Of a stretch of 50,062 bases of DNA, positions 20,723-47,874 are shown in pieces. The notes under the pieces are model-generated. The model was given only the letters and a program-made list of their open reading frames with translations. It was not told where the DNA came from and did not search any database. Made by a program: the position numbers and the translations under genes. Source of the stretch: an uncultured Elusimicrobiaceae bacterium. GTDB lineage: Bacteria; Elusimicrobiota; Elusimicrobia; Elusimicrobiales; UBA9959. The DNA lies in assembly GCA_964534135.1 (NCBI GenBank), contig CAZHQC010000002.1:1-50062 (forward strand), written 5' to 3'. Numbering within the stretch: the stretch's first letter is position 1; each line of letters starts with the position of its first letter.

Positions 20723-20728
20723 AAAAAA

Positions 20729-28471: not shown

Positions 28472-28544
28472 ATCCTATACGGCTGTAGGTACATTTCATT
28501 TTGTAATCTAAATGTGTCATTCTTGCTTGCGAGGGGGAGGTTTT

Positions 28545-31774: not shown

Positions 31775-31788
31775 GGGGTTGATGGTTT

Positions 31789-32916: not shown

Positions 32917-32924
32917 AGGTTTTT

Positions 32925-33290: not shown

Positions 33291-33335
33291 TGAAATATGC
33301 GAACGCTTTTTGCAGTTAAGTGTTTTTTTTGTTTA

Positions 33336-33400: not shown

Positions 33401-33475
33401 TATTGAAGCGTTTAGAACTTTTTAAATTGCAGTATATCCATATTATTAGTCTTTATTACTCGGGAGTAAATTAAA

Positions 33476-34540
33476 ATGCCATCCTTTGCTGATAACAATT
33501 TAAAATATATTCAAAAAAAATTTAAAAATATTGATTTGCCGGTTATAAAAGCCAGAATAAAAAACATACAATGGCCTGTTTGGAAAAAAGCCAAAGTATG
33601 CGAAGTAACGGTAAATTCAATATGCAATAACAGGTGTTTATTTTGCTATAACAGTGAAAAATATTTTGGTAGTGAACCTGATGCTGATTTTAAAGCAGTT
33701 TGTCGGGCCTTATATGAAGGAAGAAAGCAAGGGGCGTGGATTGCGGCTATTATCGGGGGAGAACCGTCTTTAAATAAAGATATAGGAAAGCTCGCTTCCG
33801 TCGCGAGAAAGATAGGGTATGATTGCGTTAAGATATGCACCAATGGCCTTAAACTTTCAGATAAGGCTTATACTCGACATTTGGTTGAAAGCGGTTTTAA
33901 TATGTTTGATATTTCAATACACGGGCATACTGCCAAAATACATGATACGCTTGTAAATTCAAAAGGGGCTTTTTCAAAAATAATGAAAGCTGCGGAAAAT
34001 GTAAAAGATTATTCCGCGGAACTCGGAACAAATCAAGTTATCAATAAACTTAATTATAAAAGTTTTCCTAAATTTTTTAAGTTGGCCTATGTGGATTTGG
34101 GGATAAATTATTACAATATTATCTATTCTCATTATCGCGGTATGATGTGGAAAAACAAGCAGGTGCTTAAAATTCCCATTACAAAGACCGCGCCATATAT
34201 AAAAGAAGGTTTTAAAGTAATAAAAGATTTAAAAATGCCTGTTTTTTCCAGAATGCTGGTTAATTTTCCGCCTTGCATATTTCCCGAATATCTTGATATT
34301 TTGGCTGATTGGGAATCTGAAGAGGAAGGAGCTGATTCTCTTTTGCTTCCCGGGGGTGAAATTGTAAATATGGCGGAAATGAAAAATAAACAGGCGGCAA
34401 AATCCGCATCTTGCGCGCAATGTTTTTTAAATGATAAATGTCATGGTATAGATAAAGAATACTTGGACATTTTCGGAGGAAAGGAATTTAAGCCTATAAA
34501 AAAGAAAGATATAAAAAAATATTTTAAAACGATATTTTAG
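33476..34540 (+). CDS. radical SAM protein, C-type paralog 1 (HxsC-like?)
   Basis: CNNRCLFCYN (CX3CX2C), IIGGEPSL, internal NFPPCIF, and C-terminal CAQCFLNDKCHGIDKEYLDIFG. It has a ~45-aa N-terminal extension. Confidence 0.7.
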   Translation: MPSFADNNLKYIQKKFKNIDLPVIKARIKNIQWPVWKKAKVCEVTVNSICNNRCLFCYNSEKYFGSEPDADFKAVCRALYEGRKQGAWIAAIIGGEPSLNKDIGKLASVARKIGYDCVKICTNGLKLSDKAYTRHLVESGFNMFDISIHGHTAKIHDTLVNSKGAFSKIMKAAENVKDYSAELGTNQVINKLNYKSFPKFFKLAYVDLGINYYNIIYSHYRGMMWKNKQVLKIPITKTAPYIKEGFKVIKDLKMPVFSRMLVNFPPCIFPEYLDILADWESEEEGADSLLLPGGEIVNMAEMKNKQAAKSASCAQCFLNDKCHGIDKEYLDIFGGKEFKPIKKKDIKKYFKTIF

Positions 34541-34553
34541 GTTTTTCTAGGTA

Positions 34554-35642
34554 GTGATGAATACATTTAATAAAGAAATAAATAAATTTAAAATAGCTTT
34601 AACTTCCGATTGTTGTTTGAGGTGTTCACATTGTTTTATTGATAAAGATTTGAAGGAAAAAACGAATCGTAAGATGGTGGATAGCGTATTGGATTTGTTT
34701 ATAAATTCCAAGGGGACAAAAAAGATTCTTGAAATTTATGGTGGAGAGCCTTTTTTGGAATTTGAATTATTAAAAGAAGTTGTGGCTTTGGCGCGAAAAA
34801 AAGCTTTAAAAAAAAGAAAAGAACTTTCCATATCGGTAGCTAGCAATGGAGTGCTTATTTTAAATAAACATCTTAACTACATGCTTGAAAATAATATAAG
34901 GCTTTCCATCAGTTTTTCCGGGACAAAAGAAACTCAAGATTTGGTTCGAAAATTCCCGGGTGGTGAAGGCAGTTACCTTATTATAAAAAAGAAACTTCCC
35001 AATATTTTAGCTAAACTCGGCCAAAAACTGCATATTATTTTTTGTGTTCATCCTTTAAGGAGTTCTTTTGTTTATAAGGATTTTAAGGCTCTTGTTGCTA
35101 TGGGCGTTAAAAACATAGGAATAGAGTGTGTACATGGATTTAAATGGACGGAGTCGGATTATAAGAATTTTTCAAAAGGAATGGAAAAGATAAGTTCTTA
35201 TGTAATTAAAAAAGTTAAATCAGGAGATTTTATTCTTCTAGAGTCTTTAATGGAAGCCTTTAGGGAAAAAACTTATGAAAATGATTTTTGTCCGTTTTTA
35301 AGAGATTTAGAGATGTTTCCCGATGGCACCCTATCATTATATCCATATCCTTTTGTTAAAGGTTTGGCGCAGAGGAAAAAAATATCCGTAGGCACCGCTT
35401 TAAAAGGAATTAAAAAAAAATATTCTTCTTGTTTGCCAAAATCAGGGTCTGTAAAGTGTAATAATTGTTTAGCCAAGTATTATCAGCTTTCGGGGCTTTA
35501 TGAAGGAAGTGTGGCATATAATATGAGAACGGATATAAGTGTAAAAGCTGTAAGAGATATCCTTGATATGTCCAAACAAGACGGAGTTTTGAGAGATTAT
35601 CTTAAAACCTTATTAAAACTTTTCAAAAAAGGATACACCTAA
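34554..35642 (+). CDS. radical SAM protein, X-type 1 (SPASM/twitch-like C-terminus)
   Basis: DCCLRCSHCFI, IYGGEPFLEF, and C-terminal Cys residues (FCPF...., SSCLPKSGSVKCNNCL). It is related to 42584..43645. Confidence 0.65.
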   Translation: MMNTFNKEINKFKIALTSDCCLRCSHCFIDKDLKEKTNRKMVDSVLDLFINSKGTKKILEIYGGEPFLEFELLKEVVALARKKALKKRKELSISVASNGVLILNKHLNYMLENNIRLSISFSGTKETQDLVRKFPGGEGSYLIIKKKLPNILAKLGQKLHIIFCVHPLRSSFVYKDFKALVAMGVKNIGIECVHGFKWTESDYKNFSKGMEKISSYVIKKVKSGDFILLESLMEAFREKTYENDFCPFLRDLEMFPDGTLSLYPYPFVKGLAQRKKISVGTALKGIKKKYSSCLPKSGSVKCNNCLAKYYQLSGLYEGSVAYNMRTDISVKAVRDILDMSKQDGVLRDYLKTLLKLFKKGYT

Positions 35643-35695
35643 TTCAAATAGTTTAGTGTTTGGGTAATACCTAAGTAAAGTTATAAATCGGAGCA

Positions 35696-37126
35696 ATGGA
35701 GATTCAAAATTCGATGAAAAAAGAAGTTTACCGACCTTTTATAAATTATTTCCAAAGATCTCCGCGCGGCTATTTTCTTTCAAATGATGCCGGGTATAAT
35801 ATCACTTTAACTAAAAAGCAATTTGAGAGTTTTCTAAAAGGAAATTTAAAAGACAAAAAATGCAAAAATCAATTGGTTGAAAAGGCATTTTTTAGAAACA
35901 GGCTTAATTTTGATTTATTGTCGGAAAGATTAGGTTCGTATTTGCTTAAAGATTGGAAAGGGCCGCACATACATATAATAAGCCTTACAAAAAGATGTGA
36001 TTCAAATTGTTTTTATTGCGGAGCAAATGCGACTAACAGTCTTGTGCGCAAGCATGATATGTCTCTTGAAATTGCCGAGAAAACGGTGGATTTTATTTTC
36101 AAGGTTCAATCTCAAGACTTAATGATAGAGTTTCAAGGCGGAGAACCGCTTTTAAATTTTAAAATTGTTAAATTTATTGTTAATTATGCCAAAAAGAAAA
36201 ATAAGATATTTAAAAGAAATATTCATTTTTCCATAGTGACTAATTTAATAGGCATGGATGAAAAAAAATTGGCTTTTTTAATAAAAAATAAAGTTACGGT
36301 TTGTTCTTCTTTGGACGGTCCGCAAGTTCTTCATGATAAAAACAGAAAGATATCCAAGGGGTCTGCTCATTCGATAGTGGCAAAATGGCTGAAAAAAATA
36401 AGTCTTCTTGCTAAAAAAAATACCGCTATTGAAGCGCCAAATGCCATTTGCACAATAAGCCGTTCTTCGCTTAAATATCCGGAAAAAATAGTGGATGAGT
36501 TTTTAAAATGCGGGCTCAATCGTGTGCAATTAGGGCCATTGGATCCTTTAGGCAGGGCGGCGCTTAATTGGGATAAAGTGGGCTATGATGCTAAAGAGTT
36601 TTTAAATTTTTATAAAAAGGCTTTTGATTATATTATTGAGTTGAATAAGAAGGGCATAGATATTTATGAGAAAGGGGCTTTGATGTTCGCTCGCCAGATA
36701 TTAACGGGAGAACGCCCGAGATATCAAAATTTGGATTTTATATATAGACTTGCCTACAATTATAATGGGAATATTTATGGGAGTGATGAGGCAAGAATGT
36801 TAAGCAATAGCGCCGATGAGTTTTTTCAATTGGGTAATGTTTATGAAGATTCTTTTGGAAGTCTTTTAAATAAGCCAATTAGCAGAACTCTTTTTCTCTC
36901 CGCTTTTGGTTTTTTAACTCAGCCCAAATGCGCTCGCTGCGCTTATAATCCGTATTGCCATATTATGCCGGTCTATAACTATGCGGCGCAAGGAAGTTTT
37001 TGGGGCAATATGGCTATCAATGAGAGATGCAAAATTTTTAAAGGCGTTTTTGATATAATTATAAGTAAAATGGAGGACAAAACCGTCAAAAGAATGTTTA
37101 TCAATTGGACAAAAAATTATCAGTGA
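35696..37126 (+). CDS. hxsB: HxsB-like radical SAM maturase, paralog 2 (degenerate SPASM cysteines)
   Basis: RCDSNCFYCG and IEFQGGEPLLNF. The first auxiliary-cluster block is Cys-free (YQNLDFIYRLAYNYNGNIYGSDEARM). The last block keeps only CARCAYNPYC (HIMPVYNY replaces GVCPVYNY). Confidence 0.6.
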   Translation: MEIQNSMKKEVYRPFINYFQRSPRGYFLSNDAGYNITLTKKQFESFLKGNLKDKKCKNQLVEKAFFRNRLNFDLLSERLGSYLLKDWKGPHIHIISLTKRCDSNCFYCGANATNSLVRKHDMSLEIAEKTVDFIFKVQSQDLMIEFQGGEPLLNFKIVKFIVNYAKKKNKIFKRNIHFSIVTNLIGMDEKKLAFLIKNKVTVCSSLDGPQVLHDKNRKISKGSAHSIVAKWLKKISLLAKKNTAIEAPNAICTISRSSLKYPEKIVDEFLKCGLNRVQLGPLDPLGRAALNWDKVGYDAKEFLNFYKKAFDYIIELNKKGIDIYEKGALMFARQILTGERPRYQNLDFIYRLAYNYNGNIYGSDEARMLSNSADEFFQLGNVYEDSFGSLLNKPISRTLFLSAFGFLTQPKCARCAYNPYCHIMPVYNYAAQGSFWGNMAINERCKIFKGVFDIIISKMEDKTVKRMFINWTKNYQ

Positions 37127-37141
37127 TATTGCGGCATTATA

Positions 37142-38041
37142 ATGAAAAGAATAGATATTAAAGTCGGATTTGAATGTAATAATTATTGTGATTTTTGCGC
37201 GCAGGGGAATAAAAGAGACGGCATTAAAAGGAAGTCTCTGAAAGAAATAACGGATATTCTTAAGGATGCCAGAAAAAAAGATATTTTAGGCGTAGTTTTT
37301 ACGGGTGGAGAGCCCACTATGCATCCCAATCTTATTGATGCTGTTAAGGCCGCTAAAAAAATGGGATTTTTTTCCATTCAAATTCAAACCAATGGCAGAA
37401 GATTCGCTTACTACGATTATTGTCTTGAGCTTAAGCGCGCGGGTGTTACCGAAATGGGGCCGTCTTTGCATGGCTCGAAGCCTGAAATTCATGACAAATT
37501 AACTAATGCCAAGGGAAGTTTTAAAGAAGTTGTTAAAGGCATAATAAACTGTAAAAAACTCGGTATGTATGTTTTAACAAATACCGTTATAACTTCGGAT
37601 AATTATAAAGACTTGCCCGATTTGGCCCGCTTATTGACTCATCTTAAAGTGGATCATTTTCAGTTCGCTTTTGTTCATATAATCGGAACGGCATTGAAAA
37701 ATAAAAAATGGATAGTGCCCCGGAAAAAACTGATTATGAAATATGTTCATAAAGGGCTTGATATAGGTTTAAATGCGGGAATTAATTGTTTTACTGAAGC
37801 TATACCTTATTGTTTTATGAAAGGTTATGAACAATGTGTGGCGGAAGAGGTAATTCCGGAAGGGCCGGTGGCGGATGCGGATATTTATGTTGAAAGTTAT
37901 GGCGATTATAGAAGAAATCAAGGTAAAATAAAACATAAAAAATGTAAAAAATGCCTGTATTTTGAAAAATGCGAAGGACCGTGGCGGGAATATCCGGAAA
38001 TCTATGGCTGGGACGAATTTGTGCCCATTAAAAAGCTTTAG
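37142..38041 (+). CDS. radical SAM protein, C-type paralog 2
   Basis: CNNYCDFCAQ, FTGGEPTMH, AIPYCFMKGYE, CKKCLYFEKCEGPWREYPEIYG. Confidence 0.7.
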   Translation: MKRIDIKVGFECNNYCDFCAQGNKRDGIKRKSLKEITDILKDARKKDILGVVFTGGEPTMHPNLIDAVKAAKKMGFFSIQIQTNGRRFAYYDYCLELKRAGVTEMGPSLHGSKPEIHDKLTNAKGSFKEVVKGIINCKKLGMYVLTNTVITSDNYKDLPDLARLLTHLKVDHFQFAFVHIIGTALKNKKWIVPRKKLIMKYVHKGLDIGLNAGINCFTEAIPYCFMKGYEQCVAEEVIPEGPVADADIYVESYGDYRRNQGKIKHKKCKKCLYFEKCEGPWREYPEIYGWDEFVPIKKL

Positions 38042-38059
38042 AAGTAAAAAGGCGGCAAA

Positions 38060-39478
38060 GTGAAAAAAAATAATTTATGTAATTTTAATTTCGAAAAACT
38101 TGGAAAAGATTATTTTATTTCCAATGATTTCGGCAATTGGCTGGTAATTAACGCAAGTGATTTTAATAAAATTTCAAATAATAATTTTTCCGCGAAATCA
38201 GAAATTTATCGGCATTTAAAAAAGGAAGGTTTTTTAAAGGACTACTTGGATTTTGACGGTTTATCGCGGCAGCTTAATAAACTTATGCCCTTTGCTCATA
38301 TAGGCCCGAGTTTACATATTATTGTTGTAACGCTTAAATGTAATCATGCTTGTGTTTATTGTAGAGCCATTAGCCACGAAAATAATTTTCAAAATACAAA
38401 CATGTCTTTTGCCACGGTTCAGAAAAGCGTCAATATGGCGCTTGAAAGTCCAAATCAAAATATAACGCTGGAATTTCAAGGCGGTGAAGCGCTTATAAAT
38501 TGGGCTATTGTTAAAAAGGCCATTAAATATGCCAAGGCGAAAAATAAAAAAACAAAAAAGAATCTTATTATTTCACTTGTCAGTAATTTTAGTTTAATGG
38601 ATAATGAGAAATTTAAATTTTTATCCGATGAAAATATTTCCGTATGCACTTCCTTGGATGGCCCCGGGTTTATTCATAATAAGAATAGAGTTTATCTGGG
38701 TGGCAATTCTTATGATTTGACTGTTAAATGGCTAAAGAAATTTTCTAAGAAAACGGCTACATTAAAAGGAAAAGAAGATTCCTTGCCTTCAGCTTTAATG
38801 ACAACTACAAAATATTCTTTGGCATATCCAAAAAAAATAGTGGATGAATATTATAATTTGGGTTTTGGCGGAATTTTTCTCCGGACTTTATCGCCTATCG
38901 GTTATGCCAAAGAGGTTTGGGGCGAGATTGGCTATGCTCCCGAAGAGTATCTTCGTTTTTATGAAAAAGCTATGGATTGTATTTTGAAGTTAAATAAAGA
39001 GAAGGGTAAATTTGTTGAGAGAACGGCAGCTATAATATTGCGAAAAATTTTAAAAAAAGAAGATCCCAACTATTTGGATTTGCGTTCTCCATGCGGGGCA
39101 AGCATAGGGCAGATGGCTTATAATTACAATGGAGATATTTATACATGCGATGAAGGGAGGATGGTGGCGGCAAAAGGTGATACTTCTTTCCGCATTGGAA
39201 ATGTTACCGGCAGTTCTTATAAAGATTTGATTAATTCCAATGCTTCAAAAGTATGCCTTATATCTTCCTGCCTTGAAAATCAGGTTAAATGCTTTCGTTG
39301 CGCATTTAAGCCTTTTTGCGGCGTATGTCCGGTGCATAATTATGAAACGCAAAATTCTCCCTGGGGCAATATGGCGGATAGCGATTGGTGTAAAATACAA
39401 AAAGGAATTTTTAAAATTATAGTGAAAAAACTTCAAAAAAAAGAATACAAGAAAATTTTTGAAAGTTGGTTTGAATAA
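38060..39478 (+). CDS. hxsB: HxsB-like radical SAM/SPASM maturase, paralog 3
   Basis: GTG start. KCNHACVYCR, LEFQGGEALINW, SPCGASIGQMAYNYNGDIYTCDEGRM, CFRCAFKPFCGVCPVHNY. It shares a 38-nt identical stretch with paralog 1 (39336-39373 = 31199-31236). Confidence 0.65.
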   Translation: MKKNNLCNFNFEKLGKDYFISNDFGNWLVINASDFNKISNNNFSAKSEIYRHLKKEGFLKDYLDFDGLSRQLNKLMPFAHIGPSLHIIVVTLKCNHACVYCRAISHENNFQNTNMSFATVQKSVNMALESPNQNITLEFQGGEALINWAIVKKAIKYAKAKNKKTKKNLIISLVSNFSLMDNEKFKFLSDENISVCTSLDGPGFIHNKNRVYLGGNSYDLTVKWLKKFSKKTATLKGKEDSLPSALMTTTKYSLAYPKKIVDEYYNLGFGGIFLRTLSPIGYAKEVWGEIGYAPEEYLRFYEKAMDCILKLNKEKGKFVERTAAIILRKILKKEDPNYLDLRSPCGASIGQMAYNYNGDIYTCDEGRMVAAKGDTSFRIGNVTGSSYKDLINSNASKVCLISSCLENQVKCFRCAFKPFCGVCPVHNYETQNSPWGNMADSDWCKIQKGIFKIIVKKLQKKEYKKIFESWFE

Positions 39479-40362: not shown

Positions 40363-40449
40363 GGCGGCGCCGTGAGGCGTGTATAAAGAAAATTGAGATT
40401 AAGAATTTTCCCCATTATTAAACTCGAAATCAATGTTGATTTTTAAATT

Positions 40450-41619: not shown

Positions 41620-42554
41620 ATAAAAAATCGTCCAAAAAAATTAAAATTGTTATTTTTACGGGTTATGCCTGCAATAATAATTGCCGGTTTTGTATAAATT
41701 CAAATAAGCGGGAACTTCTGGAAAAGACAACGGATGAATTAATTAAAGAAATTTATCTGGCTAAAAAAAAGAAAGCAGATATCATAGAAATAATAGGGGG
41801 AGAATCTACCATAAGGTCTGATTACACGCATTTGGTTTCATTCGCGAAAAAAATCGGAATTAAAGAGGTTTTAAGCGCCACAAACGGCAGGATATTTTCG
41901 GATTTTTCCGCCGCTAAAAAAATAGTGGATAGCGGTATTACGGGGCTTATATTTTCTTTGCACGGACATAATTCAAAAACCCATGATTATTTGACCAGAA
42001 GCCCGGGCAGTTTTAATGAATTGATAAAAGGAATAGAGAATTTAAAAAAGCTTGGTTTTAGAAGGATAAATGGCAATACTACTATTGTTAAGCAGAATAT
42101 GCGGTTTTTACCTGAAATAGCGGAAATATATGCCAGGTATCATGTGCGCAATGTTGAATATATTTTTGTCGATCCGACTTATGGTGGGGCTTATGATAAT
42201 TTTGAAATGTTGGTGCCAAAAATATCAAAAGCGAGTGTATATATGAAAAAAGCCATTGATATCGGTCTTGAGTATGGTTATTCACAATGGAAAGCCAGAT
42301 ATGTTCCACTTTGTTATTTCAAGGGTTATGAAAAACATATAAGTGAAATCAATGAGAGAATTCTTTTTTCTACTGAACACTGGGCTCCGGATTTTAAAAA
42401 TACGGACGCTTTAGCTTCAAGACAGCTGGTGTCAAGAAAAAAAACAATGCGTTGTAAGGGTTGTTCGTTTTATAATGCCTGTGAAGGTATATGGGTGGAA
42501 TATATTAATCATTATGGTGATAGTGAGCTTAAGCCGGTAAAGAAAATAGAGTAA
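41616..42554 (+). CDS. radical SAM protein, C-type paralog 4
   Basis: GTGA overlap with the upstream gene. CNNNCRFCIN, IIGGESTIR, YVPLCYFKGYE, CKGCSFYNACEGIWVEYINHYG. Confidence 0.7.
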   Translation: MNKKSSKKIKIVIFTGYACNNNCRFCINSNKRELLEKTTDELIKEIYLAKKKKADIIEIIGGESTIRSDYTHLVSFAKKIGIKEVLSATNGRIFSDFSAAKKIVDSGITGLIFSLHGHNSKTHDYLTRSPGSFNELIKGIENLKKLGFRRINGNTTIVKQNMRFLPEIAEIYARYHVRNVEYIFVDPTYGGAYDNFEMLVPKISKASVYMKKAIDIGLEYGYSQWKARYVPLCYFKGYEKHISEINERILFSTEHWAPDFKNTDALASRQLVSRKKTMRCKGCSFYNACEGIWVEYINHYGDSELKPVKKIE

Positions 42555-42583
42555 ATAATAAGAAGAAAGAATATAGTGAAGCC

Positions 42584-43645
42584 ATGGAGAGAGTTTTAAT
42601 GAATGCGCCGAATAATCTTGTTATATATATGAGCGGTTTATGTAATCTTAGATGCTCCTATTGCTATGTTAAAGACACCGTTTTTGAAAAGCCAATAGAG
42701 AAAAAAGTTTTACTAAGAGCTGTTTCAAAGTTTTTAAATTCTCCGGGTAAAAGCAAGAAAATAACCTTTCTTGGGGGAGAGCCTTTTCTGCATTTTAATT
42801 TGATAAAAGCTGTCATAATTTTTATAAGAAAAGAAACAAAAAACAATTTGCCTGTGCATATATTTACCAATGGTTTGTTAATTGATGAAAAAATATCTAA
42901 GTTTATAAAAGATTTCAATATTAATCTGATTGTCAGTTTAAATGAGCGGGATATGTCTGTCGGAATATTCAAAGCGAGAAGAGATATCAAAAAGATTTTT
43001 AAATATATTGAGCTTGGAAAGACAACTGTATCCTTGGTAATAAAGAAAGAAGCGGCAAATGATTTGTTTAACCATGTTTCAAGCTTGTATAAATTAGGGT
43101 TTAGGCATATTGCCTGGTCTCCGGATATAACAAAAATCTGGAATGAAAAGGAAATTTTAGCCTTGAAGCGTGAAATGCTTAGACTCCGAAGGCATTATCT
43201 CCAATTGATTAAAAAAGGGCTTGAGCTTTATGAAATTGCCAACGCGTATGAAATTATGGATAAAATTCTCAAGCGTCCCTTCATCGACGCATGTATGAGC
43301 GTGATTCTTTGTTCCGATGGAAATTTCATTCCTTGTGATAAGCTTATTGCAAGTGATAAAAATGGTGTTGAAAAGTATGCTTCATCTCAAGTGGCGGGCG
43401 GAAAGAAAAAAAATCTTTTTTTTAAAGAAGCTTTAAAATATGGCGCGGATGTAAAAAATTTAATGTGTCCCGTAGGGGCGTTCGCGTATAGTAAATATGT
43501 TTTAAAAAGCGGGGCTTCCGAGGTTAAAAGGGCGGTGAAACAGCATATAAAATTATCCGCTGTTATTGAAGAGAATTATTTTTTATTATTTAAGCAAGCC
43601 TTGAAATATTCGGCATTTAGAAAGGCGTATAATATTAATGATTAA
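42584..43645 (+). CDS. radical SAM protein, X-type 2
   Basis: CNLRCSYCYV, FLGGEPFLHF, and late Cys cluster DACMSVILCSDGNFIPCDKL ... LMCPVG. Confidence 0.65.
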   Translation: MERVLMNAPNNLVIYMSGLCNLRCSYCYVKDTVFEKPIEKKVLLRAVSKFLNSPGKSKKITFLGGEPFLHFNLIKAVIIFIRKETKNNLPVHIFTNGLLIDEKISKFIKDFNINLIVSLNERDMSVGIFKARRDIKKIFKYIELGKTTVSLVIKKEAANDLFNHVSSLYKLGFRHIAWSPDITKIWNEKEILALKREMLRLRRHYLQLIKKGLELYEIANAYEIMDKILKRPFIDACMSVILCSDGNFIPCDKLIASDKNGVEKYASSQVAGGKKKNLFFKEALKYGADVKNLMCPVGAFAYSKYVLKSGASEVKRAVKQHIKLSAVIEENYFLLFKQALKYSAFRKAYNIND

Positions 43646-44855
43646 AAAAGCTAAAATTTCCAAAAAAGCAATAAGTGATGATATGAAAAAAGAATCACTA
43701 AATAAATGCTATGAGATAATTCTCAATTATAATTGTAACGCCAAGTGTCTTTTTTGTTCGCAGGGCTCATTTGATAAGTCTTTAAACGCCGGTTTTGATA
43801 ATATAGCCAAGAATATATATTCAGCTTATAAAATGGGTTATCGCCGGCTTGGCTTTACGGGCGGTGAGCCTTTATTGCGCGGCGATATAATAAAAATTAT
43901 TTCTTTGGCGAAATCTATCGGTTTTGATTTTATAAGAATTCAGACAAACGGGATAAAACTTGCGAATAAAAAATTCGCCGGGCAATTGGTCGAAGCCGGT
44001 CTTACTGTTTGCAAATTTTCTTTTTTAAGTGATAAGGCCAAGGTTCATGATGAATTGGTGGGCGTAAAGGGAGCTTGGAAAAAAGCAATGCTTGGCTTGA
44101 AAAATTTAAAAAGCCAGAAAGTAAGAGTTGGGACCAATATACTTATCAATAAATATAATTTTAACCGCCTTGATGAGATAATATATTATTTCCTTGAAAA
44201 GGGAATAAGCAATTTTGTGATGATTTATCCCATGTATATAGGAAGCATGAAAGCTAATCATTTAAAAATCGGCGTTTCTCTGCCTAAGGCAAAAAAATAT
44301 TTTATAAGCGCCATTAAAGTTATGAAAAAGGCGGGCTTGCCCGATGAAATCCTTTTTTTAAATGTGCCTCCTTGTTTTTTGAAGGGCTATGAATCCTTAT
44401 CCATAGGACTTGAGAATTTTAATACTTTAGTTACCGATCCCAGCGGCATTAAAACCGATTTGGATGAAAACGCGGACAAGGCCAAAGTCCGCATTCCGTT
44501 GTGCCGGACTTGCGTTTTTAAGAAAAAATGTTCGGGCATAGACAAAAATTATATTGATATATGGGGCCTGCCAAAATTTATTTCTCAGGAAAAAAAGAAA
44601 AAAACATCTGCACTTGGCGAAAAAGTATTTTTCTCCGACAATGAAAGATGTTTTATTGAAATACTCAAAAGCAAAGTTCCCGCTTCAACGGCTGAGGTAT
44701 TGAAGTTGGCGAAAAATATAATTTTATGTCGTGATTGTTCGGACGGCAATGCCGTTATAGTTGCCGCTGAAAGTCTTATAAAGAAAAAAATTGTCGAGAA
44801 AATTTTTAAAAAAGGGCGCTATTATTGGACACTTAAAAGCGCTGGGAAAAAGTAA
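43638..44855 (+). CDS. radical SAM protein, C-type paralog 5, with a ~90-aa winged-helix-like C-terminal extension
   Basis: CNAKCLFCSQ, FTGGEPLLR, NVPPCFLKGYE, CRTCVFKKKCSGIDKNYIDIWG. The extension is ERCFIEILKSKVPASTAEVLKLAKNI....VIVAAESLIKKKIVEKIFKKGRYYWTL. Confidence 0.7.
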   Translation: MIKKAKISKKAISDDMKKESLNKCYEIILNYNCNAKCLFCSQGSFDKSLNAGFDNIAKNIYSAYKMGYRRLGFTGGEPLLRGDIIKIISLAKSIGFDFIRIQTNGIKLANKKFAGQLVEAGLTVCKFSFLSDKAKVHDELVGVKGAWKKAMLGLKNLKSQKVRVGTNILINKYNFNRLDEIIYYFLEKGISNFVMIYPMYIGSMKANHLKIGVSLPKAKKYFISAIKVMKKAGLPDEILFLNVPPCFLKGYESLSIGLENFNTLVTDPSGIKTDLDENADKAKVRIPLCRTCVFKKKCSGIDKNYIDIWGLPKFISQEKKKKTSALGEKVFFSDNERCFIEILKSKVPASTAEVLKLAKNIILCRDCSDGNAVIVAAESLIKKKIVEKIFKKGRYYWTLKSAGKK

Positions 44856-45701
44856 ATGGCTTTATTGCGTATTATTCATACTTGTAATCAAGATTGCGTG
44901 TTTTGTTCTTATCTTGGGAAAAACGCGAAGAATAAAAAATATGATTTTAAGGAATATTCTCTTGAAATAATTAAATCCAAAGACAAACTTATCCAGATAT
45001 CCGGCGGGGAGCCGTTTCTTTTGGGTGGAATAAATCTCTTAAAGCTGGTTCTTTTTGCTGTTAAAAATAATAAGAAAGTGGAGATACAAAGCAATGCTTC
45101 CCTTATTAAGGATATCTCTTTAGATATTTTAAAAAAATTGATTAAGGCGGTTAATTTATCGAAAGGTTACTTTAATATTAATCTTTCAGCGGCAGATGTT
45201 ATTACGGACGAAAGAGTAGCTGGCGCGAAAAATATATTCGCGGATAAAATAAAAGGCATAAAATTATTATATACGCTTGGCGCTGATATAAGATTGACTT
45301 ATATTATTTGCAGATCGAATTATAAACAAACTCCTGAATTTGTAAATTTTATACTCAAAGAATTTCCCGGCATTAAGTGGGTGCAATTTAGTTTTGTTAA
45401 GGCCATGGGAAAAGCTTTAACTAAGAAAATAGTTCCCAAATATCGGACTGTAAAAAAATATATTATTAAAGCGGCTTCGCTTTGTGAAAAAAATAAAATA
45501 ATGTGTGAAATAGATCATATTCCGTTATGTATGCTGGGCTCTTATTATCGTTTTAACGTTGATATAGGAAAAATAAATGAAAATAAAAACGGTTTACATA
45601 GGCAAGAGAAAACGCATATAAAAAGATGCTTAAAATGTAAATATGTTAATATTTGCTCGGGACCGAGAAAAGATTATCTTAAAATATACGGAGATTTATA
45701 A
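44856..45701 (+). CDS. radical SAM protein, C-type paralog 6
   Basis: CNQDCVFCSY, ISGGEPFLL, HIPLCMLGSYY, CLKCKYVNICSGPRKDYLKIYG. Confidence 0.7.
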   Translation: MALLRIIHTCNQDCVFCSYLGKNAKNKKYDFKEYSLEIIKSKDKLIQISGGEPFLLGGINLLKLVLFAVKNNKKVEIQSNASLIKDISLDILKKLIKAVNLSKGYFNINLSAADVITDERVAGAKNIFADKIKGIKLLYTLGADIRLTYIICRSNYKQTPEFVNFILKEFPGIKWVQFSFVKAMGKALTKKIVPKYRTVKKYIIKAASLCEKNKIMCEIDHIPLCMLGSYYRFNVDIGKINENKNGLHRQEKTHIKRCLKCKYVNICSGPRKDYLKIYGDL

Positions 45702-46954
45702 TGAGGGGCGCAAAAAATATTTTGCCTTTAAAAAAGGAATTTCCCGCATTAAAGCGCAGGATTTCAAAAAAAGCGATAGTTTATCTTGATAGCGCTTGCA
45801 CCGCTTTAAAAATGAAATCAGCGGCTCGCGAGCAGAGCGATTTCTTGCTTGAATCCGGAGCTTGCGCCGGCAAAAGATCCGTTCATTTGCTTAGCCGCGA
45901 AGTGGAAAATAAAATTTGCGCGGCGCGTAAAGCCATTGCTTCATTTATCGGAGCGGATAGCTTGGACGAAATAGTTTTTACAAGCGGAACAACTGAAAGC
46001 GCCAATATCGCGGCCGCAAGTTTTCCTTTTAAAAAAGGAGCCGAAGTTATCCTATCTCCTTTAGAGCATAATAGTGTTTTTCTCCCGTTTTATCGTTTAG
46101 CTGGAGAAGGCAAAATAAAGCTTAAAATTATTCCGCTTAAGAATTTTAAACCGGATTTTAACGTTTATAAAAAAATGCTTAATTCTAAAACGGCTCTTGT
46201 TTGCATAACTCATGCTTCCAATATTTTTGGCGGTATTGTGGATATCAAAAAATTTATAAATGCCGCTCATAAGAAAGGGGCCAAAGTTTTTATTGATGAC
46301 GCTCAGTATATCCCTTCGCATAAAGAAAATGTCAGCGCTTTGAATGCGGATATGCTGGCTTTTTCAGGTCATAAAATGGGCGCTCCTTTTGGCACCGGGA
46401 TTTTATATATTAAGAGAAGTCTTTTTAAATTTTTAAAATCTTCAAAGTTGGGTGGGGGAACTATTAAGGAAATAGTTCTTGAAGATGGCCTATATAGAGT
46501 TTGTTTTCTTGAAAATAATTTGGCTTATGAAGCCGGTATTCAGAACTATTCCGGTATTGCGGCGCTTAAAAAATCTTTTGAATTATTACATGAAATCGGC
46601 TATGAAAATATAAGGAAGCACCTTCAAGAGATTGTTGAATATGCTTATGCGAAACTTTCGTCTTTTAAAGAAATAAAAATTATAGGCAATCAGAGAGATT
46701 TGTCAAAAGGAAGTCTTATATCTTTTGTATGTGAAAATCCTAAATTTTCCATTATTGATTTTAATCTTTTCTTGCAGGAATATTCGGCTAAATATTTTGT
46801 GGCTGTAAGATGTGGCCGACATTGCGCGGATTTAGCTATTTTAAATTCGGATATAAAATCTACGGTTAGATTGTCATTTTTTATTTATAGCTCAAAGCGC
46901 GATATTGATGTTTTTTACCGGGCCTTAATTCTTTATCTAAAATCTTTTTCATGA
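45701..46954 (+). CDS. class V aminotransferase / cysteine desulfurase (SufS/NifS-like)
   Basis: TAATG overlap with the upstream gene. HASNIFGG, DDAQY, PLP-lysine context FSGHKMGAPFGTGILYI, and catalytic-Cys context RCGRHCA. Confidence 0.75.
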   Translation: MRGAKNILPLKKEFPALKRRISKKAIVYLDSACTALKMKSAAREQSDFLLESGACAGKRSVHLLSREVENKICAARKAIASFIGADSLDEIVFTSGTTESANIAAASFPFKKGAEVILSPLEHNSVFLPFYRLAGEGKIKLKIIPLKNFKPDFNVYKKMLNSKTALVCITHASNIFGGIVDIKKFINAAHKKGAKVFIDDAQYIPSHKENVSALNADMLAFSGHKMGAPFGTGILYIKRSLFKFLKSSKLGGGTIKEIVLEDGLYRVCFLENNLAYEAGIQNYSGIAALKKSFELLHEIGYENIRKHLQEIVEYAYAKLSSFKEIKIIGNQRDLSKGSLISFVCENPKFSIIDFNLFLQEYSAKYFVAVRCGRHCADLAILNSDIKSTVRLSFFIYSSKRDIDVFYRALILYLKSFS

Positions 46955-47874
46955 AAAAAAAATCCATTAATGACGCGGAACCCAATCTTTTTCTGACTGC
47001 CGAATGCAATCAGAATTGTATTTTTTGTTCGGCCAAGGGGGAAGATAGGAGTATGACAAAAAAGGAGCTTTCAGCCTGCCTCGCTTTGGGTTATAAATCG
47101 CTTGCTTTTGAAGGCGGCGAGCCTCTTATGAGTAAAGATTTAATATATTGGACTGAGCGCGCAAAAAAAAGTGGGGCGGATGAAATTATATTGCTTACAA
47201 ACGGGCTTTTGCTTACAGAGAATAAATTGAAGCTTTTAATACAAAAGGGAATAACCAAATTTGAATTTAATTTACCGTCTCATATAGTGAAACTTCATGA
47301 TACCTTGACCGGGTCAAAAAAGCAATTTCCAAAGAGAATAAGGGCGATTAAAAGGACGCTTAAATATATCAAAGACGGAGTAATAATAACTTTTGTTTTA
47401 AACGCCTTAAACTATAAAACCTTGCCTGCCTATATTAATTTTATAGCGAAAGAATTTCCTGGAACATTTTTTATAGCTTTAAATTTCATTAAAATAAAAG
47501 GGCTTGTTAAAAAAAGAAAATATCTTGTGCCAAAATTAAGCGAAACGAAGTTTTATATTCTTAAAGCTTTGGAAAAGGCCAAAAAAATGCATATGCCGAT
47601 TATATTGGATGGTTTTCCTTTATGCGTTTTAGACGGTTATGAGGAATATTCCAGAGATATCGACAGAATTATTAAAAGCGATAAGTCTTATCTGGGAGAG
47701 AAAAAGCATATAAAAAAATGTTTAAAATGCTCTTTAAAAGATATCTGCGCGGGGCCAAGAAAAGATTATTTGAACTTATTTGGAGATAAAGAGATTTCAG
47801 CTTCATCAAAAAAAATCGCGCCCATAATAAATAAAGTAAAAAAAGGCCAACTGCGATTGAATATTAAAGCTTAG
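46951..47874 (+). CDS. radical SAM protein, C-type paralog 7
   Basis: ATGA overlap with the upstream gene. CNQNCIFCSA, FEGGEPLMS, GFPLCVLDGYE, CLKCSLKDICAGPRKDYLNLFG. Confidence 0.7.
   Translation: MKKKSINDAEPNLFLTAECNQNCIFCSAKGEDRSMTKKELSACLALGYKSLAFEGGEPLMSKDLIYWTERAKKSGADEIILLTNGLLLTENKLKLLIQKGITKFEFNLPSHIVKLHDTLTGSKKQFPKRIRAIKRTLKYIKDGVIITFVLNALNYKTLPAYINFIAKEFPGTFFIALNFIKIKGLVKKRKYLVPKLSETKFYILKALEKAKKMHMPIILDGFPLCVLDGYEEYSRDIDRIIKSDKSYLGEKKHIKKCLKCSLKDICAGPRKDYLNLFGDKEISASSKKIAPIINKVKKGQLRLNIKA

What the first reader, a model, noticed from the sequence alone, without database searches (positions are those of the whole stretch)
33476..47874. Seven-member paralog family of compact radical SAM enzymes with a shared P-x-C ... 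CxxCx5CxG...Y...(Y/F/W)G C-terminal signature
The genes at 33476, 37142, 39478, 41616, 43638, 44856 and 46951 all have an N-terminal CX3CX2C and a GGE(P/S) block. All have a conserved internal Cys (NFPPC, IPYC, FPLC, VPLC, VPPC, IPLC, FPLC, mostly followed by ..GYE). All have a near-terminal motif:
- CAQCFLNDKCHG..YLDIFG
- CKKCLYFEKCEG..YPEIYG
- CRRCSERKNCLG..YYEYFG
- CKGCSFYNACEG..YINHYG
- CRTCVFKKKCSG..YIDIWG
- CLKCKYVNICSG..YLKIYG
- CLKCSLKDICAG..YLNLFG
Four conserved Cys outside the SAM cluster fit one auxiliary [4Fe-4S] site, a minimal SPASM/twitch-like unit. The paralogs are strongly diverged outside these motifs. That divergence argues for sub-functionalisation (different positions or reactions) rather than recent amplification. 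Whether this family equals HxsC is uncertain from memory.
Basis: partly seen in the sequence, partly recalled or inferred. Interest (0 to 1): 0.7.

Follow-up and report, generated by a model that had tools for sequence, protein, structure and literature searches.

The report
Seven compact HxsC-like radical SAM paralogs
One Elusimicrobiota operon carries seven old, diverged copies of a shortened HxsC-type radical SAM enzyme that most likely work together, with five other radical SAM enzymes in the operon and a sixth encoded convergently next to it, to rebuild a (His-Gly-Ser)n repeat protein; this is an undescribed, much expanded relative of the four-gene HXS antiphage system.

Summary
All seven genes exist at the stated coordinates. 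Each has CX3CX2C, GGE(P/S), a Cys after strand beta6 (PxC) and a terminal CxxCx5CxG...Y...(Y/F/W)G. The window holds no eighth copy.

**Family.** They are homologues of HxsC. Klebsiella and Leptospira HxsC share the same four extra Cys. All seven score below the NCBIfam cut-offs for HxsC and HxsC4, and all lack the ~95-residue N-terminal domain of canonical HxsC.

**Age of the copies.** The copies are 20-35% identical to each other but 41-61% identical to their own orthologues. C2, C3 and C4 orthologues occur in Elusimicrobia and CPR bacteria; C2 and C4 also reach DPANN-type archaea, C2 and C3 Omnitrophota, and C2 Myxococcota. The duplications are therefore old, which fits sub-functionalisation.

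**Fusions.** Public proteins fuse two or three such modules, sometimes with PapB-like or HemN-like modules. This suggests the paralogs act together.

**Auxiliary cluster.** One auxiliary [4Fe-4S] site is the best reading of the four Cys, but it is inferred. No SPASM HMM hit was found and model coordinates could not be measured.

**Context.** The operon has 18 genes: an HxsA4 precursor with about 20 HxS repeats, three HxsB, two HxsD, two PapB-like enzymes, SufS and a divergent A24 leader peptidase. I found no literature on it. I rate it a new variant of a known kind.

The parts
33476..34540 (+). C1: compact HxsC-like radical SAM enzyme (354 aa). CNNRCLFC, GGEP, NFPPC, CAQCFLNDKCHG..YLDIFG. About 40 extra N-terminal residues.
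   Evidence: The orthogroup was found only in Elusimicrobia loci; bootstrap support 94.
37142..38041 (+). C2: compact HxsC-like radical SAM enzyme (299 aa). It is the most conserved paralog and sits 15 nt after HxsB-2.
   Evidence: Orthologues at 42-90% identity occur in 50 loci from Elusimicrobia, CPR, Omnitrophota, Myxococcota and archaea. AF2 pLDDT is 96.1.
39478..40362 (+). C3: compact HxsC-like radical SAM enzyme (294 aa). It is the closest to canonical HxsC, has the short 25-residue Cys linker, and its start overlaps the HxsB-3 stop by 1 nt.
   Evidence: TIGR03977 score 153.5 bits, the best of the seven. Sister to canonical HxsC in the outgroup-rooted NJ tree. Linker lengths.
41616..42554 (+). 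C4: compact HxsC-like radical SAM enzyme (312 aa, GTG start, GGES). It overlaps the A24-like peptidase gene by 4 nt.
   Evidence: Orthologues at about 46-87% identity include CPR bacteria and archaea.
43638..44855 (+). C5: HxsC-like core plus a conserved C-terminal extension of about 90 residues. The extension is predicted to be a winged helix with three invariant Cys: C338 and C364xxC367.
   Evidence: AF2 model with pLDDT 84 shows helices 334-382 and a hairpin at 386-399. Invariant columns come from 40 orthologues.
44856..45701 (+). C6: compact HxsC-like radical SAM enzyme (281 aa), the shortest and most diverged copy. It lacks the HD of the HGxxxxxHD block.
   Evidence: Closest paralog is C7 at 33-35% identity.
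46951..47874 (+). C7: compact HxsC-like radical SAM enzyme (307 aa). It overlaps SufS by 4 nt.
32925..33290 (+). HxsA4-type precursor (121 aa). It has a leader ..FLNSEEGK.., a hydrophobic helix, about 20 His-Xaa-Ser repeats (mostly HGS) and ends in RGGWC. It is the presumed substrate.
   Evidence: NF038313 HxsA4 scores 67.3 bits against a cut-off of 55. Homologous precursors occur in 12 related loci.
29439..29918 (+). HxsD-like protein 1 (159 aa), below the family cut-off.
   Evidence: TIGR03976 scores 37.5 bits against a cut-off of 50. Conserved in related loci.
29887..31344 (+). HxsB-1, a radical SAM/SPASM maturase.
   Evidence: TIGR03978 scores 478.7 bits against a cut-off of 370.
31472..31774 (+). 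HxsD-2 (100 aa).
   Evidence: TIGR03976 scores 54.9 bits against a cut-off of 50.
35696..37126 (+). HxsB-2, a radical SAM/SPASM maturase.
   Evidence: TIGR03978 scores 411.3 bits.
38060..39478 (+). HxsB-3, a radical SAM/SPASM maturase.
   Evidence: TIGR03978 scores 499.3 bits.
34554..35642 (+). PapB-like radical SAM enzyme 1, below the family cut-off.
   Evidence: NF047865 scores 132 bits against a cut-off of 340.
42584..43645 (+). PapB-like radical SAM enzyme 2, below the family cut-off.
   Evidence: NF047865 scores 106 bits.
40450..41619 (+). Divergent A24 (prepilin-peptidase-like, GxGD) membrane protease with about 8 TM segments. It is the candidate HxsA4 leader peptidase.
   Evidence: D23 and G95-D96-A97-K98 are invariant in 36 orthologues. 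Orthologues at about 50% identity hit PF01478 over the full profile at E 4e-6 to 3e-3, and NCBI names two of them 'prepilin peptidase'. The window copy itself gives no HMM hit.
45701..46954 (+). SufS-family cysteine desulfurase, below the family cut-off.
   Evidence: TIGR01979 scores 303 bits against a cut-off of 475. Conserved after C6 in 15 or more related loci.
47864..49264 (-). HemN/ChuW-class radical SAM enzyme, convergent with C7 and overlapping it by 11 nt. It is probably part of the system.
   Evidence: TIGR00538 at E 3.5e-54 and ChuW/HutW at 1.6e-37, both below cut-offs. It lies next to C1 in L003, L004, L007, L013 and L014. It is fused to C-like modules in public proteins.
31789..32916 (+). 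Cys-rich protein of unknown function with an N-terminal hydrophobic helix, located between HxsD-2 and HxsA4.
   Evidence: No Pfam, NCBIfam or PDB hit. Conserved at 24-33% identity in Elusimicrobia loci.
28512..29375 (+). Gly-rich protein just upstream of HxsD-1. It may be part of the system.
   Evidence: Conserved upstream of HxsD in 9 loci, including Omnitrophota L027. Weak match to Bdellovibrio fibre proteins 8ojn and 8ond at E 1e-4.

Best explanation
**What the genes are.** The seven genes encode N-terminally shortened members of the HxsC branch of the radical SAM superfamily.

**Predicted cofactors.** Each should bind the SAM-cleaving [4Fe-4S] cluster through CX3CX2C. This is shown by sequence. 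Each most likely also binds one auxiliary [4Fe-4S] cluster. Its ligands would be the CxxCx5C triad plus the Cys that follows strand beta6 (PxC). That arrangement would resemble the Aux II site of SPASM enzymes with the fourth ligand moved upstream. This step is inferred.

**Age of the copies.** The seven are products of old duplications, not fresh copies. C2, C3 and C4 form a core that travels with a divergent A24 leader peptidase across Elusimicrobia and CPR bacteria; C2 and C4 also reach DPANN-type archaea, C2 and C3 Omnitrophota, and C2 Myxococcota. C1, C5, C6 and C7 are additions seen in Elusimicrobia. C3 is the counterpart of canonical HxsC.

**Proposed mechanism (inferred).**
1. The paralogs act in the cytoplasm, probably as a physical assembly. 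Partners would be three HxsB SPASM enzymes, two PapB-like enzymes, a HemN-class enzyme and two HxsD proteins.
2. Each paralog carries out a different radical step, or acts at a different position, on the tandem His-Xaa-Ser repeats of the HxsA4 precursor.
3. An in-operon SufS supplies sulfur, most simply for the many Fe-S clusters.
4. The A24-like protease then removes the conserved leader, and the hydrophobic segment places the modified repeat tail at the cell envelope.
For: **Family assignment.**
- The best NCBIfam hits of all seven are HxsC or HxsC4.
- The four extra Cys and the Gly align column for column with Klebsiella and Leptospira HxsC.
- All seven Cys are invariant in 120 and in 220 homologues.

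**Substrate context.**
- HxsA4 scores above its cut-off, three HxsB score above theirs, and HxsD is present.
- The 18 genes lie on one strand with gaps of -32 to +185 nt and many overlapping stops and starts.
- The same gene sets recur in 50 or more loci from several phyla.

**Old duplications.** Orthogroup trees and identities support this.

**Acting together.**
- 118 of the 150 best cluster representatives carry 2-3 C-like modules in one polypeptide.
- Some are also fused to PapB-like or HemN-like modules.

**Auxiliary site.**
- CxxCx5C aligns with the SPASM CX2CX5C of HxsB.
- The AF2 models of C2 (pLDDT 96) and C5 (pLDDT 84) both show beta6, Cys, hairpin, helix, CxxCx5C in that order.
- Foldseek alignments reach nearly full length only on the SPASM/twitch enzymes SuiB, CteB and SkfB, with TMq 0.64-0.69.
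- The closest PDB sequences all belong to the SPASM/twitch group.

**Peptidase.**

**Precedent.** In the canonical system HxsB and HxsC are needed for a site-specific +8 Da change in an HxS repeat and for N-terminal processing of HxsA, and HxsC binds HxsD (PMC13128918).
Against: - No SPASM or twitch HMM hit on the C-terminal fragments, even at E<=10.
- The profile-profile match covers only 15 columns at 30% probability.
- C3 and canonical HxsC have only 24-25 residues between the upstream Cys and CxxC, so the hairpin-helix element is not general.
- No experiment links any compact paralog to HxsA4.
- A compact C2-like enzyme sits in a Clostridium NHLP-type RiPP cluster without any Hxs gene, so substrate choice in this family is not fixed.
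- Bootstrap support for the C4, C5 and C6 groups is weak.
- The fusion count comes from a list ranked by summed score, which favours multi-module proteins.
Confidence: 0.62

Rival explanations
1. The four extra Cys do not form a full auxiliary [4Fe-4S] site. One option is that they hold a structural zinc or a mononuclear iron. Another is that only the CxxCx5C triad binds a cluster with an open iron, while the Cys after beta6 is a catalytic residue (hydrogen-atom donor or thiyl) at the mouth of the barrel.
For: No SPASM or twitch HMM hit. Only a 15-column motif match. The upstream Cys sits about five residues after beta6, at the active-site end of the barrel, in both AF2 models. The spacing to CxxC varies from 24 to 75 residues. 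From memory: MoaA and some sactisynthases have three-Cys auxiliary clusters with an open site, and YydG-type epimerases use a Cys as hydrogen-atom donor.
Against: All four Cys are equally invariant across 220 sequences and two domains of life. From memory, CX2CX5C plus one distal Cys is the ligand set of SPASM Aux II. The operon carries its own cysteine desulfurase.
Confidence: 0.22
2. The compact paralogs act on a non-peptide substrate such as a sugar nucleotide, lipid or cofactor precursor made alongside the Hxs peptide, and not on HxsA4 itself.
For: The best PDB matches for the core are BlsE (a sugar-nucleotide decarboxylase), GDGT-MAS (lipid), viperins and MoaA. The compact enzymes lack the N-terminal domain of canonical HxsC. 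A nucleotidyltransferase, a GT2 glycosyltransferase and a large TPR membrane protein lie just upstream.
Against: The top family hits are the peptide-system enzymes HxsC and HxsC4, ahead of BlsE and MoaA. The genes are interleaved and translationally coupled with HxsB genes and follow the precursor. Linkage with HxsA-like, HxsB and HxsD genes is conserved across phyla. The one relative found outside Hxs loci is again in a RiPP cluster. The upstream sugar genes are conserved in only 1-3 related loci.
Confidence: 0.1
3. The seven copies are a recent, largely redundant amplification kept for dosage, without division of labour.
For: They share one fold and one motif set, and the precursor is itself a monotonous repeat.
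Against: Paralogs are only 20-35% identical, while each has orthologues at 41-61% mean identity. C2, C3 and C4 orthologues occur in other phyla, and C2 and C4 in archaea. Each orthogroup has its own conserved positions. C5 has its own conserved extra domain. Gene order is conserved among Elusimicrobia.
Confidence: 0.03

Closest known systems
HxsC (TIGR03977) of the four-gene HXS antiphage system HxsD-B-C-A (Haft & Basu 2011; Li et al., Nat Commun 2026, PMC13128918)
   Same: It is the best family hit. It has the same radical SAM core and the same four extra Cys plus Gly (PxC ... CxxCx5CxG) in aligned columns. It also co-occurs with HxsB, HxsD and a His-Xaa-Ser repeat protein. C3 overlaps its HxsB gene, as hxsC does in Klebsiella.
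   Different: - Scores are 83-153 bits against a cut-off of 267.9.
- The ~95-residue N-terminal domain is absent.
- There are seven copies instead of one.
- The tail Y..(Y/F/W)G is absent from canonical HxsC.
- The host is Elusimicrobiota; canonical HXS is 99.7% Pseudomonadota and more than 99.8% of systems have just four proteins.
- The precursor has about 20 repeats and no peptidoglycan-binding domain.
- The operon adds PapB-like enzymes, SufS and an A24 peptidase, with a HemN-like gene convergent at its 3' end.
- It lies in a chromosomal, syntenic context next to BamA, LpxD and PhoH2 rather than on IS-flanked plasmids.
HxsC4 (NCBIfam NF038332, 'rare' exception model) with HxsA4 (NF038313)
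   Same: The window precursor passes the HxsA4 cut-off. C1, C2 and C4 hit HxsC4 best, at 112-142 bits.
   Different: The cut-off is 500 bits. No window paralog reaches it, and none of 120 relatives does (best about E 2.7e-99). NCBI names the orthologues only 'radical SAM protein'. I found no paper on HxsA4 or HxsC4.
SPASM/twitch radical SAM peptide maturases (anSME, SuiB, CteB, PqqE; twitch: SkfB, BtrN)
   Same: They share the core subgroup and a CX2CX5C motif after a hairpin-helix element. The context is RiPP-like.
   Different: There are four extra Cys, not seven, and no CX9-15GX4C. The last Cys of CX2CX5CX3C is missing and there is no downstream Cys. No PF13186 hit was found. The linker is as short as 24 residues in part of the family.
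BlsE (7vob) and GDGT-MAS/Tes (7tol), the closest solved structures
   Same: They are the best sequence and fold matches for residues about 5-200 of the core (E 3e-27 and 8e-14).
   Different: The match stops before the C-terminal Cys region (about 200 aligned columns, TMq 0.6). Their substrates are non-peptide, and there is no shared gene context.

Membership tests
Radical SAM superfamily (PF04055) | Pfam hit above the gathering score, plus a CX3CX2C cluster motif and a GGE SAM-binding motif. | tested here: met
   All seven score 42-100 bits against a cut-off of 29.5. CX3CX2C and GGE are invariant.
HxsC equivalog (TIGR03977) | Whole-protein score at or above the curated cut-off of 267.9 bits. 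| tested here: not met
   The seven score 83.4-153.5 bits. The best of 120 relatives has E 6.3e-62, still below the cut-off.
HxsC equivalog (TIGR03977) | Gene context with HxsB, HxsD and a His-Xaa-Ser repeat protein. | tested here: met
   HxsB x3, HxsD and HxsA4 score above their cut-offs in the same operon. C2 and C3 directly follow HxsB genes.
HxsC equivalog (TIGR03977) | Architecture of annotated HxsC: about 370 aa with about 95 residues before the CX3CX2C. | tested here: not met
   The CX3CX2C starts at residue 10-50 in the seven, against residue 101 in Klebsiella HxsC.
HxsC equivalog (TIGR03977) | C-terminal PxC ... CxxCx5CxG cysteines, as seen in annotated HxsC. | tested here: met
   Columns C317, C342, C345, C351 and G353 of Klebsiella HxsC are invariant across all nine aligned sequences.
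HxsC4 (NF038332) | Whole-protein score at or above 500 bits. | tested here: not met
   The seven score 35.5-141.6 bits. The best relative has E 2.7e-99.
SPASM domain (PF13186 / TIGR04085) | HMM hit and the seven-Cys motif CX9-15GX4C - CX2CX5CX3C - C that binds two auxiliary clusters. | tested here: not met
   No SPASM family among the Pfam hits for the full proteins or for the C-terminal fragments at E<=10. Only four extra Cys are present. hhalign against the HxsB SPASM region aligns only the 15-column CX2CX5C motif, at 30% probability.
Twitch domain (a truncated SPASM with one auxiliary cluster) | A beta-hairpin plus helix after the core, carrying Cys ligands that converge on one Fe-S cluster. 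| tested here: inconclusive
   The AF2 models of C2 and C5 show Cys, hairpin, helix, CxxCx5C in order. The SkfB, SuiB and CteB alignments extend furthest.
Auxiliary [4Fe-4S] cluster enzyme | About eight Fe and eight S per monomer, with a second cluster signal that depends on the extra Cys. | not testable with these tools
   This needs anaerobic reconstitution and spectroscopy.
HXS antiphage defence system (PMC13128918) | Four-gene D-B-C-A cassette, an HxsA with a signal peptide, peptidoglycan-binding domain and five HxS repeats, and protection against phage. | tested here: not met
   The operon has 18 genes. HxsA4 is 121 aa and gave no peptidoglycan-binding-domain hit in NCBIfam or Pfam, and carries about 20 repeats. 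PADLOC gives only generic viperin-like hits. The phenotype cannot be tested here.

The most novel reading that the evidence does not exclude
The window may show the full form of an ancient radical SAM assembly line. It is kept vertically in Elusimicrobia and shared with CPR bacteria, DPANN-type archaea, Omnitrophota and Myxococcota. In it, up to nine HxsC-like modules, fused into single mega-enzymes in some organisms, would together with HxsB, PapB-like and HemN-like enzymes convert the poly(His-Xaa-Ser) tail of a pilin-like precursor into a heavily cross-linked or heterocyclic polymer at the cell surface. The precursor would be processed by its own A24 peptidase. On this reading the system is a new class of ribosomal material and a standing envelope component, not an accessory phage-defence island. 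The four-gene HXS system of Proteobacteria would be its reduced offshoot.
Probability: 0.2. Interest if true: 0.85.

Novelty: new variant of a known kind. Interest (0 to 1): 0.6.

Why it matters
**State of the field.** HxsC-type enzymes were only linked to a function in 2026, in antiphage HXS. Their chemistry, a +8 Da change in an HxS motif, is still unsolved.

**What this locus adds.**
- The HxsC fold carries four invariant extra Cys that the published work does not discuss. The words 'auxiliary' and 'SPASM' do not occur in that paper.
- Canonical HxsC appears to be one branch (nearest C3; 45-65% bootstrap support) of a much larger radiation of compact enzymes. About 4,100 cluster representatives score at E<=1e-30.
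- Nature stacks up to nine of these enzymes, or fuses them, around one very simple repetitive substrate.

**Why that is useful.** It gives an experimentally tractable set. The enzymes are small, the repeat substrate is defined, and natural fusions hint at which modules pair. This could help work out what HxsC enzymes do chemically and why an auxiliary cluster would be needed.

**Biological question.** The system is retained in very small CPR genomes, for example a 689-kb Nealsonbacteria genome (L048), and in archaea. That raises the question of what the product does for the cell envelope.

Tried and rejected
- **Pfam on C-terminal fragments** of all seven at E<=10: no SPASM, Fer4 or any meaningful hit.
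- **hhalign** of the family C-terminus against the SPASM regions of HxsB: only the 15-column Cys motif aligns, at 30% probability.
- **PDB sequence search** with the C2 profile and with Klebsiella HxsC: core-only matches and no HxsC structure.
- **Foldseek against PDB:** generic radical SAM cores. No residue-level alignment is returned, and model coordinates are not exposed in /data. Cys-Cys distances therefore could not be measured.
- **PADLOC:** only viperin-like similarity of the cores.
- **Flp/Tad-pilin reading of the HxsA4 leader.** From memory it resembles FLKDESG|ATAIEYG. Pfam scans of eight leaders at E<=10 gave nothing, so I keep it as a lead only.
- **The A24-like protein itself:** no Pfam, NCBIfam or PDB hit. 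It was identified only through its orthologues.
- **Promoter and terminator scan of the operon:** counts are no higher than in shuffled sequence.
- **tRNA and Rfam scans of the window:** nothing.
- **Literature:** Haft & Basu 2011 (PMC3133131) is not held. The Elusimicrobia radical SAM clusters described by Meheust et al. flank nitrogenase paralogs and are a different system.
- **Recent amplification:** rejected on the trees.
- **An eighth copy in the window:** rejected.

Full report
**1.

The window has ORFs at 33476, 37142, 39478, 41616, 43638, 44856 and 46951 on the + strand, 281-405 aa long. I call them C1 to C7.

In a MAFFT alignment of the seven, the invariant columns (C1 numbering) are:
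- C50 N51 C54 C57, the CX3CX2C motif
- G94 G95 E96
- N123, N193 and G222
- P265 and C267
- C313, C316, C322 and G324
- Y329 and G334

All seven pass Pfam Radical_SAM. tblastn of the seven against the whole window finds no further copy or pseudogene. Pairwise identity is only 20-35%, so 'strongly diverged outside the motifs' is correct.

**2. What family they belong to**

The best NCBIfam hit of every copy is either HxsC (TIGR03977) or HxsC4 (NF038332), ahead of MoaA, NirJ, AhbD, PqqE and BlsE. All scores are far below the curated cut-offs: 83-153 bits against 267.9, and 35-142 bits against 500.

I fetched annotated hxsC genes from a Klebsiella and a Leptospira plasmid and aligned them with the seven. 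The four extra Cys and the Gly fall in the same columns (Klebsiella C317, C342, C345, C351, G353).

- The PxC...CxxCx5CxG signature is therefore a property of the whole HxsC family, not of this locus.
- The window copies lack the ~95 residues that precede the CX3CX2C in canonical HxsC.
- The tail Y..(Y/F/W)G is specific to the compact clade. It occurs in 154 of 220 homologues and is absent from both canonical sequences.

**3. Organism and spread**

C2 has 87-90% identical orthologues in Elusimicrobiota MAGs. It has about 50% identical orthologues in Saccharibacteria, Parcubacteria/Nealsonbacteria, Omnitrophota, Myxococcota and DPANN-type archaea.

I classified all ORFs of the 58 fetched loci against the window proteins.
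- Elusimicrobia keep the order C1, PapB-like, HxsB, C2, HxsB, C3, membrane protein, C4, PapB-like, C5, C6, SufS, (C7).
- A reduced Elusimicrobia form has HxsD, HxsB, HxsD, Cys-rich protein, C2, C3, membrane protein, C4, C5, C6, SufS.
- Loci from other phyla typically have HxsD, HxsB and an HxS-repeat protein, followed by several C-like genes. These often include C2-, C4- and C3-type copies and the membrane protein.
- Up to nine C-like genes occur per 20-kb locus.

Of 256 C-like ORFs, 236 carry both Cys motifs, and most of the failures are cut by contig ends. In a 220-sequence alignment the upstream Cys, which was not used for selection, is 100% conserved. In 120 sequences from other genomes, the invariant columns are the seven Cys plus the Gly of the CxG motif.

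None of those 120 reaches the HxsC or HxsC4 cut-off. NCBI names the orthologues just 'radical SAM protein'.

**4. Old paralogs, not a fresh amplification**

In an NJ tree rooted on canonical HxsC, each window copy sits in its own clade.
- C2: 51 sequences from 50 loci, spanning Elusimicrobia, Myxococcota, CPR, Omnitrophota and archaea.
- C3: 30 sequences.
- C4: 29 sequences, including archaea.
- C1, C5 and C6: only Elusimicrobia and unclassified MAGs.
- C7: 3 sequences.

Each window member is on average 41-61% identical to its own group, against 20-35% to the other paralogs. Each large group has 4-24 positions that are at least 90% conserved within it and differ in every other group.

I then built a 79-sequence tree rooted on the HxsB and PapB-like cores, with 100 bootstraps.
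- Monophyly support is 100 for C3, 94 for C1, 92 for C2 and 80 for C7.
- Support is weak for C6 (53), C5 (24) and C4 (6).
- Canonical HxsC is sister to C3 in the best tree. It pairs with C3 alone in 45% of replicates and with C3 plus unassigned sequences in a further 20%.

C3 also has the best HxsC score. It shares the short 24-25-residue Cys linker of canonical HxsC. It overlaps its HxsB gene as hxsC does in Klebsiella. C3 is thus the likely counterpart of canonical HxsC, and canonical HxsC looks like one branch of a wider radiation.

**5. The paralogs probably work together**

A profile of the seven was searched against 1.84 billion cluster representatives. It finds 103,986 proteins at E<=1e-3, which are mostly generic radical SAM enzymes, and 4,100 at E<=1e-30.

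Of the best 150, 118 contain two or three complete C-like modules in a single polypeptide.
- The commonest pairs are C2-C4 and C4-C4 (13 each), C4-C2 (8), and C2-C2 and C2-C5 (7 each).
- Some are fused to PapB-like modules (P0361, 1318 aa: PapB-like-C4-C2-C1).
- Some are fused to HemN-like modules (P0372).

The list is ranked by summed score, which favours such proteins. It therefore shows that fusions exist in many independent clusters, not how frequent they are. Fusion of separate paralog types is classic evidence for joint action. It also ties the convergent HemN-class gene (47864-49264, minus strand) to the system. That gene sits next to C1 in five related loci.

**6. The auxiliary site**

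The sequence profile of C2 matches solved structures only over residues 5-200. The matches are BlsE, GDGT-MAS, PqqE, SkfB, viperins, MoaA, SuiB and anSME.

AF2 gives a confident model of C2 (pLDDT 96.1, pTM 0.91). After beta6 (215-219) come Cys224, a beta-hairpin (243-245 and 248-250), a helix (253-261), and then C268, C271 and C277. The C5 model (pLDDT 84) repeats this order.

Foldseek hits that cover only the core have TMq about 0.6. The longest alignments, 260-343 columns with TMq 0.64-0.69, are to the twitch/SPASM peptide maturases SkfB, SuiB and CteB.

hhalign of the family C-terminus against the SPASM region of HxsB aligns CxxCx5C with the SPASM CX2CX5C. The match is only 15 columns at 30% probability. 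Pfam finds no SPASM domain even at E<=10.

From memory of anSME: the first three Cys of CX2CX5CX3C plus a downstream Cys bind Aux II, and the fourth Cys binds Aux I. The HxsC family keeps the triad, lacks both the fourth Cys and any downstream Cys, and has one invariant upstream Cys. My best reading is a single Aux-II-like [4Fe-4S] completed by the Cys after beta6.

This is inference. I could not obtain model coordinates. The linker ranges from 24 to 75 residues, so the hairpin-helix is not part of the minimal unit. The published HXS paper does not mention an auxiliary cluster.

**7. The surrounding system**

Positions 29439 to 47874 hold 18 genes on one strand, with gaps of -32 to +185 nt. 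In order they are:
1. an HxsD-like protein
2. HxsB-1 (479 bits)
3. HxsD-2
4. a Cys-rich unknown protein
5. HxsA4, which scores above its cut-off and has about 20 HxS repeats, mostly HGS, ending in RGGWC
6. C1
7. a PapB-like enzyme
8. HxsB-2
9. C2
10. HxsB-3
11. C3
12. a membrane protein
13. C4
14. a PapB-like enzyme
15. C5
16. C6
17. a SufS-family desulfurase
18. C7

Counting the HemN-class gene, that is 13 radical SAM enzymes.

*The membrane protein.* It has no HMM hit itself. Its orthologues at about 50% identity hit Peptidase_A24 over the whole profile (E 4e-6 to 3e-3, one above the gathering score), and two are named prepilin peptidase. D23 and the G95-D96-A97-K98 motif are invariant in 36 orthologues. 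It is a divergent GxGD aspartyl leader peptidase, and it travels with C2, C3 and C4 across phyla.

*The precursors.* HxsA4-type precursors in 12 loci share a leader K..FL(T/N/S)SEEGK, a hydrophobic helix and 7-36 HxS repeats.

*C5.* It carries a conserved C-terminal winged-helix-like domain with invariant C338 and C364xxC367. This may be a recognition or metal-binding module.

**8. Comparison with what is known**

The canonical HXS system is a four-gene cassette, HxsD-B-C-A. It is 99.7% Pseudomonadota, and more than 99.8% of systems have just four proteins. HxsB and HxsC are required for a +8 Da change in one HxS motif and for N-terminal processing. HxsC binds HxsD. Mature HxsA blocks phage DNA entry (PMC13128918).

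The window system shares the parts list but differs in several ways:
- scale
- the precursor: no peptidoglycan-binding-domain hit, and four times as many repeats
- added functions: A24 peptidase, SufS, PapB-like and HemN-like enzymes
- host range
- genomic setting

On the last point, the cluster lies beside BamA, LpxD and a PhoH2-like gene. The PhoH2-like gene is syntenic upstream of the cluster in seven Elusimicrobia loci. The Klebsiella cassette is flanked by IS elements.

NCBIfam has curated HxsA4 and HxsC4 models, so the type has been noticed. I found no paper on it. PADLOC 2.0 has no matching model.

A compact C2-like enzyme with the full signature also sits in a Clostridium perfringens NHLP-type RiPP cluster without Hxs genes. 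The compact family is therefore a broader class of peptide maturases.

**9. Verdict**

- The sequence observation is fully confirmed.
- The sub-functionalisation reading is supported.
- HxsC membership resolves to 'same superfamily, not the equivalog'.
- The auxiliary-cluster reading is the best available but remains untested.

I rate this a new variant of a known kind, with interest 0.6. The most useful new points are:
- the universal four-Cys site in HxsC enzymes
- the placement of canonical HxsC next to C3 inside a large radiation
- the natural multi-module fusions
- the dedicated A24 peptidase

Noticed in passing
window 40450-41619 (+): The ~8-TM protein between C3 and C4 is a divergent A24 (prepilin-peptidase-like) aspartyl protease. 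D23 and G95-D96-A97-K98 are invariant in 36 orthologues, and orthologues hit PF01478. The window copy itself gives no HMM hit. It co-travels with C2, C3 and C4 across phyla.
   Followed up: yes
window 32925-33290 (+); L004, L020, L022, L026, L027, L029, L031, L035, L040, L044, L045, L048: HxsA4-type precursors share a leader K..FL(T/N/S)SEEGK(I/M) followed by a hydrophobic helix and 7-36 HxS repeats. From memory the leader resembles Flp/Tad prepilin leaders, but Pfam gave no support. In L029 and L048 the repeats are followed by a Cys-Cys motif and a ~330-aa extra domain.
   Followed up: partly
proteins P0361-P0510 (public cluster representatives): Many public proteins are natural fusions of 2-3 HxsC-like modules. 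Some also include PapB-like or HemN-like radical SAM modules, for example P0361 (1318 aa, PapB-like-C4-C2-C1). Their genomic context could not be looked up with the tools allowed.
   Followed up: partly
window 44630-44855 (C-terminal ~90 aa of C5): C5 and its ~400-aa orthologues carry a C-terminal winged-helix-like domain (four helices plus a hairpin in AF2). C338, C364, C367 and the DGN of CRDCSDGN are invariant, which suggests a further metal site or a recognition domain.
   Followed up: partly
window 47864-49264 (-): A HemN/ChuW-class radical SAM gene converges on C7 and overlaps it by 11 nt. Homologues lie next to C1 in five related loci and are fused to C-like modules elsewhere. This class includes C1-transferring enzymes, which is notable because the modification reported for canonical HxsA is +C/-4H.
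   Followed up: partly
window 45701-46954 (+): A SufS-family cysteine desulfurase is embedded between C6 and C7, with 1-nt and 4-nt overlaps. It is conserved in that position in 15 or more related loci. It could serve Fe-S supply or sulfur insertion.
   Followed up: no
window 28512-29375 (+): A Gly-rich protein ending in CCKIQ lies just upstream of HxsD-1. It is conserved there in nine loci, including an Omnitrophota genome. It weakly resembles Bdellovibrio fibre proteins 8ojn and 8ond (E 1e-4).
   Followed up: partly
window 31789-32916 (+): A 375-aa Cys-rich protein lies between HxsD-2 and HxsA4. It has an N-terminal hydrophobic helix and a Lys/Glu-rich tail. No family or structure match was found. 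It is conserved at 24-33% identity in Elusimicrobia loci.
   Followed up: partly
L061:4986-5900 (Clostridium perfringens plasmid NZ_CP075938): A 305-aa compact C2-like enzyme with the full signature (FPPC ... CVGCDRNQKCGG..Y..FYGWEEF) lies in an NHLP-type (Os1348 family) RiPP cluster. That cluster also has DUF6365 proteins, another radical SAM enzyme, MtnK and MetK, but no Hxs genes.
   Followed up: partly
window 11992-24342: The flank holds core envelope and housekeeping genes: LpxD (11992-13020, -), BamA (13946-16534, -), a NodU-like carbamoyltransferase (18081-19925) and a PhoH2-like helicase (23041-24342). The PhoH2-like gene is syntenic upstream of the cluster in seven Elusimicrobia loci. 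This argues for a chromosomal, vertically kept locus.
   Followed up: partly
window 24351-28404 (+): A sugar nucleotidyltransferase, a GT2 glycosyltransferase and an 835-aa multi-TM protein with C-terminal TPR repeats lie directly upstream of the cluster. They are conserved in only 1-3 related loci, so they are probably not part of the system.
   Followed up: partly
window 33291-33475: The 185-nt gap after the precursor gene is the longest in the operon. It contains no ORF, and the simple scan found no terminator there. A possible regulatory RNA structure was not examined.
   Followed up: no
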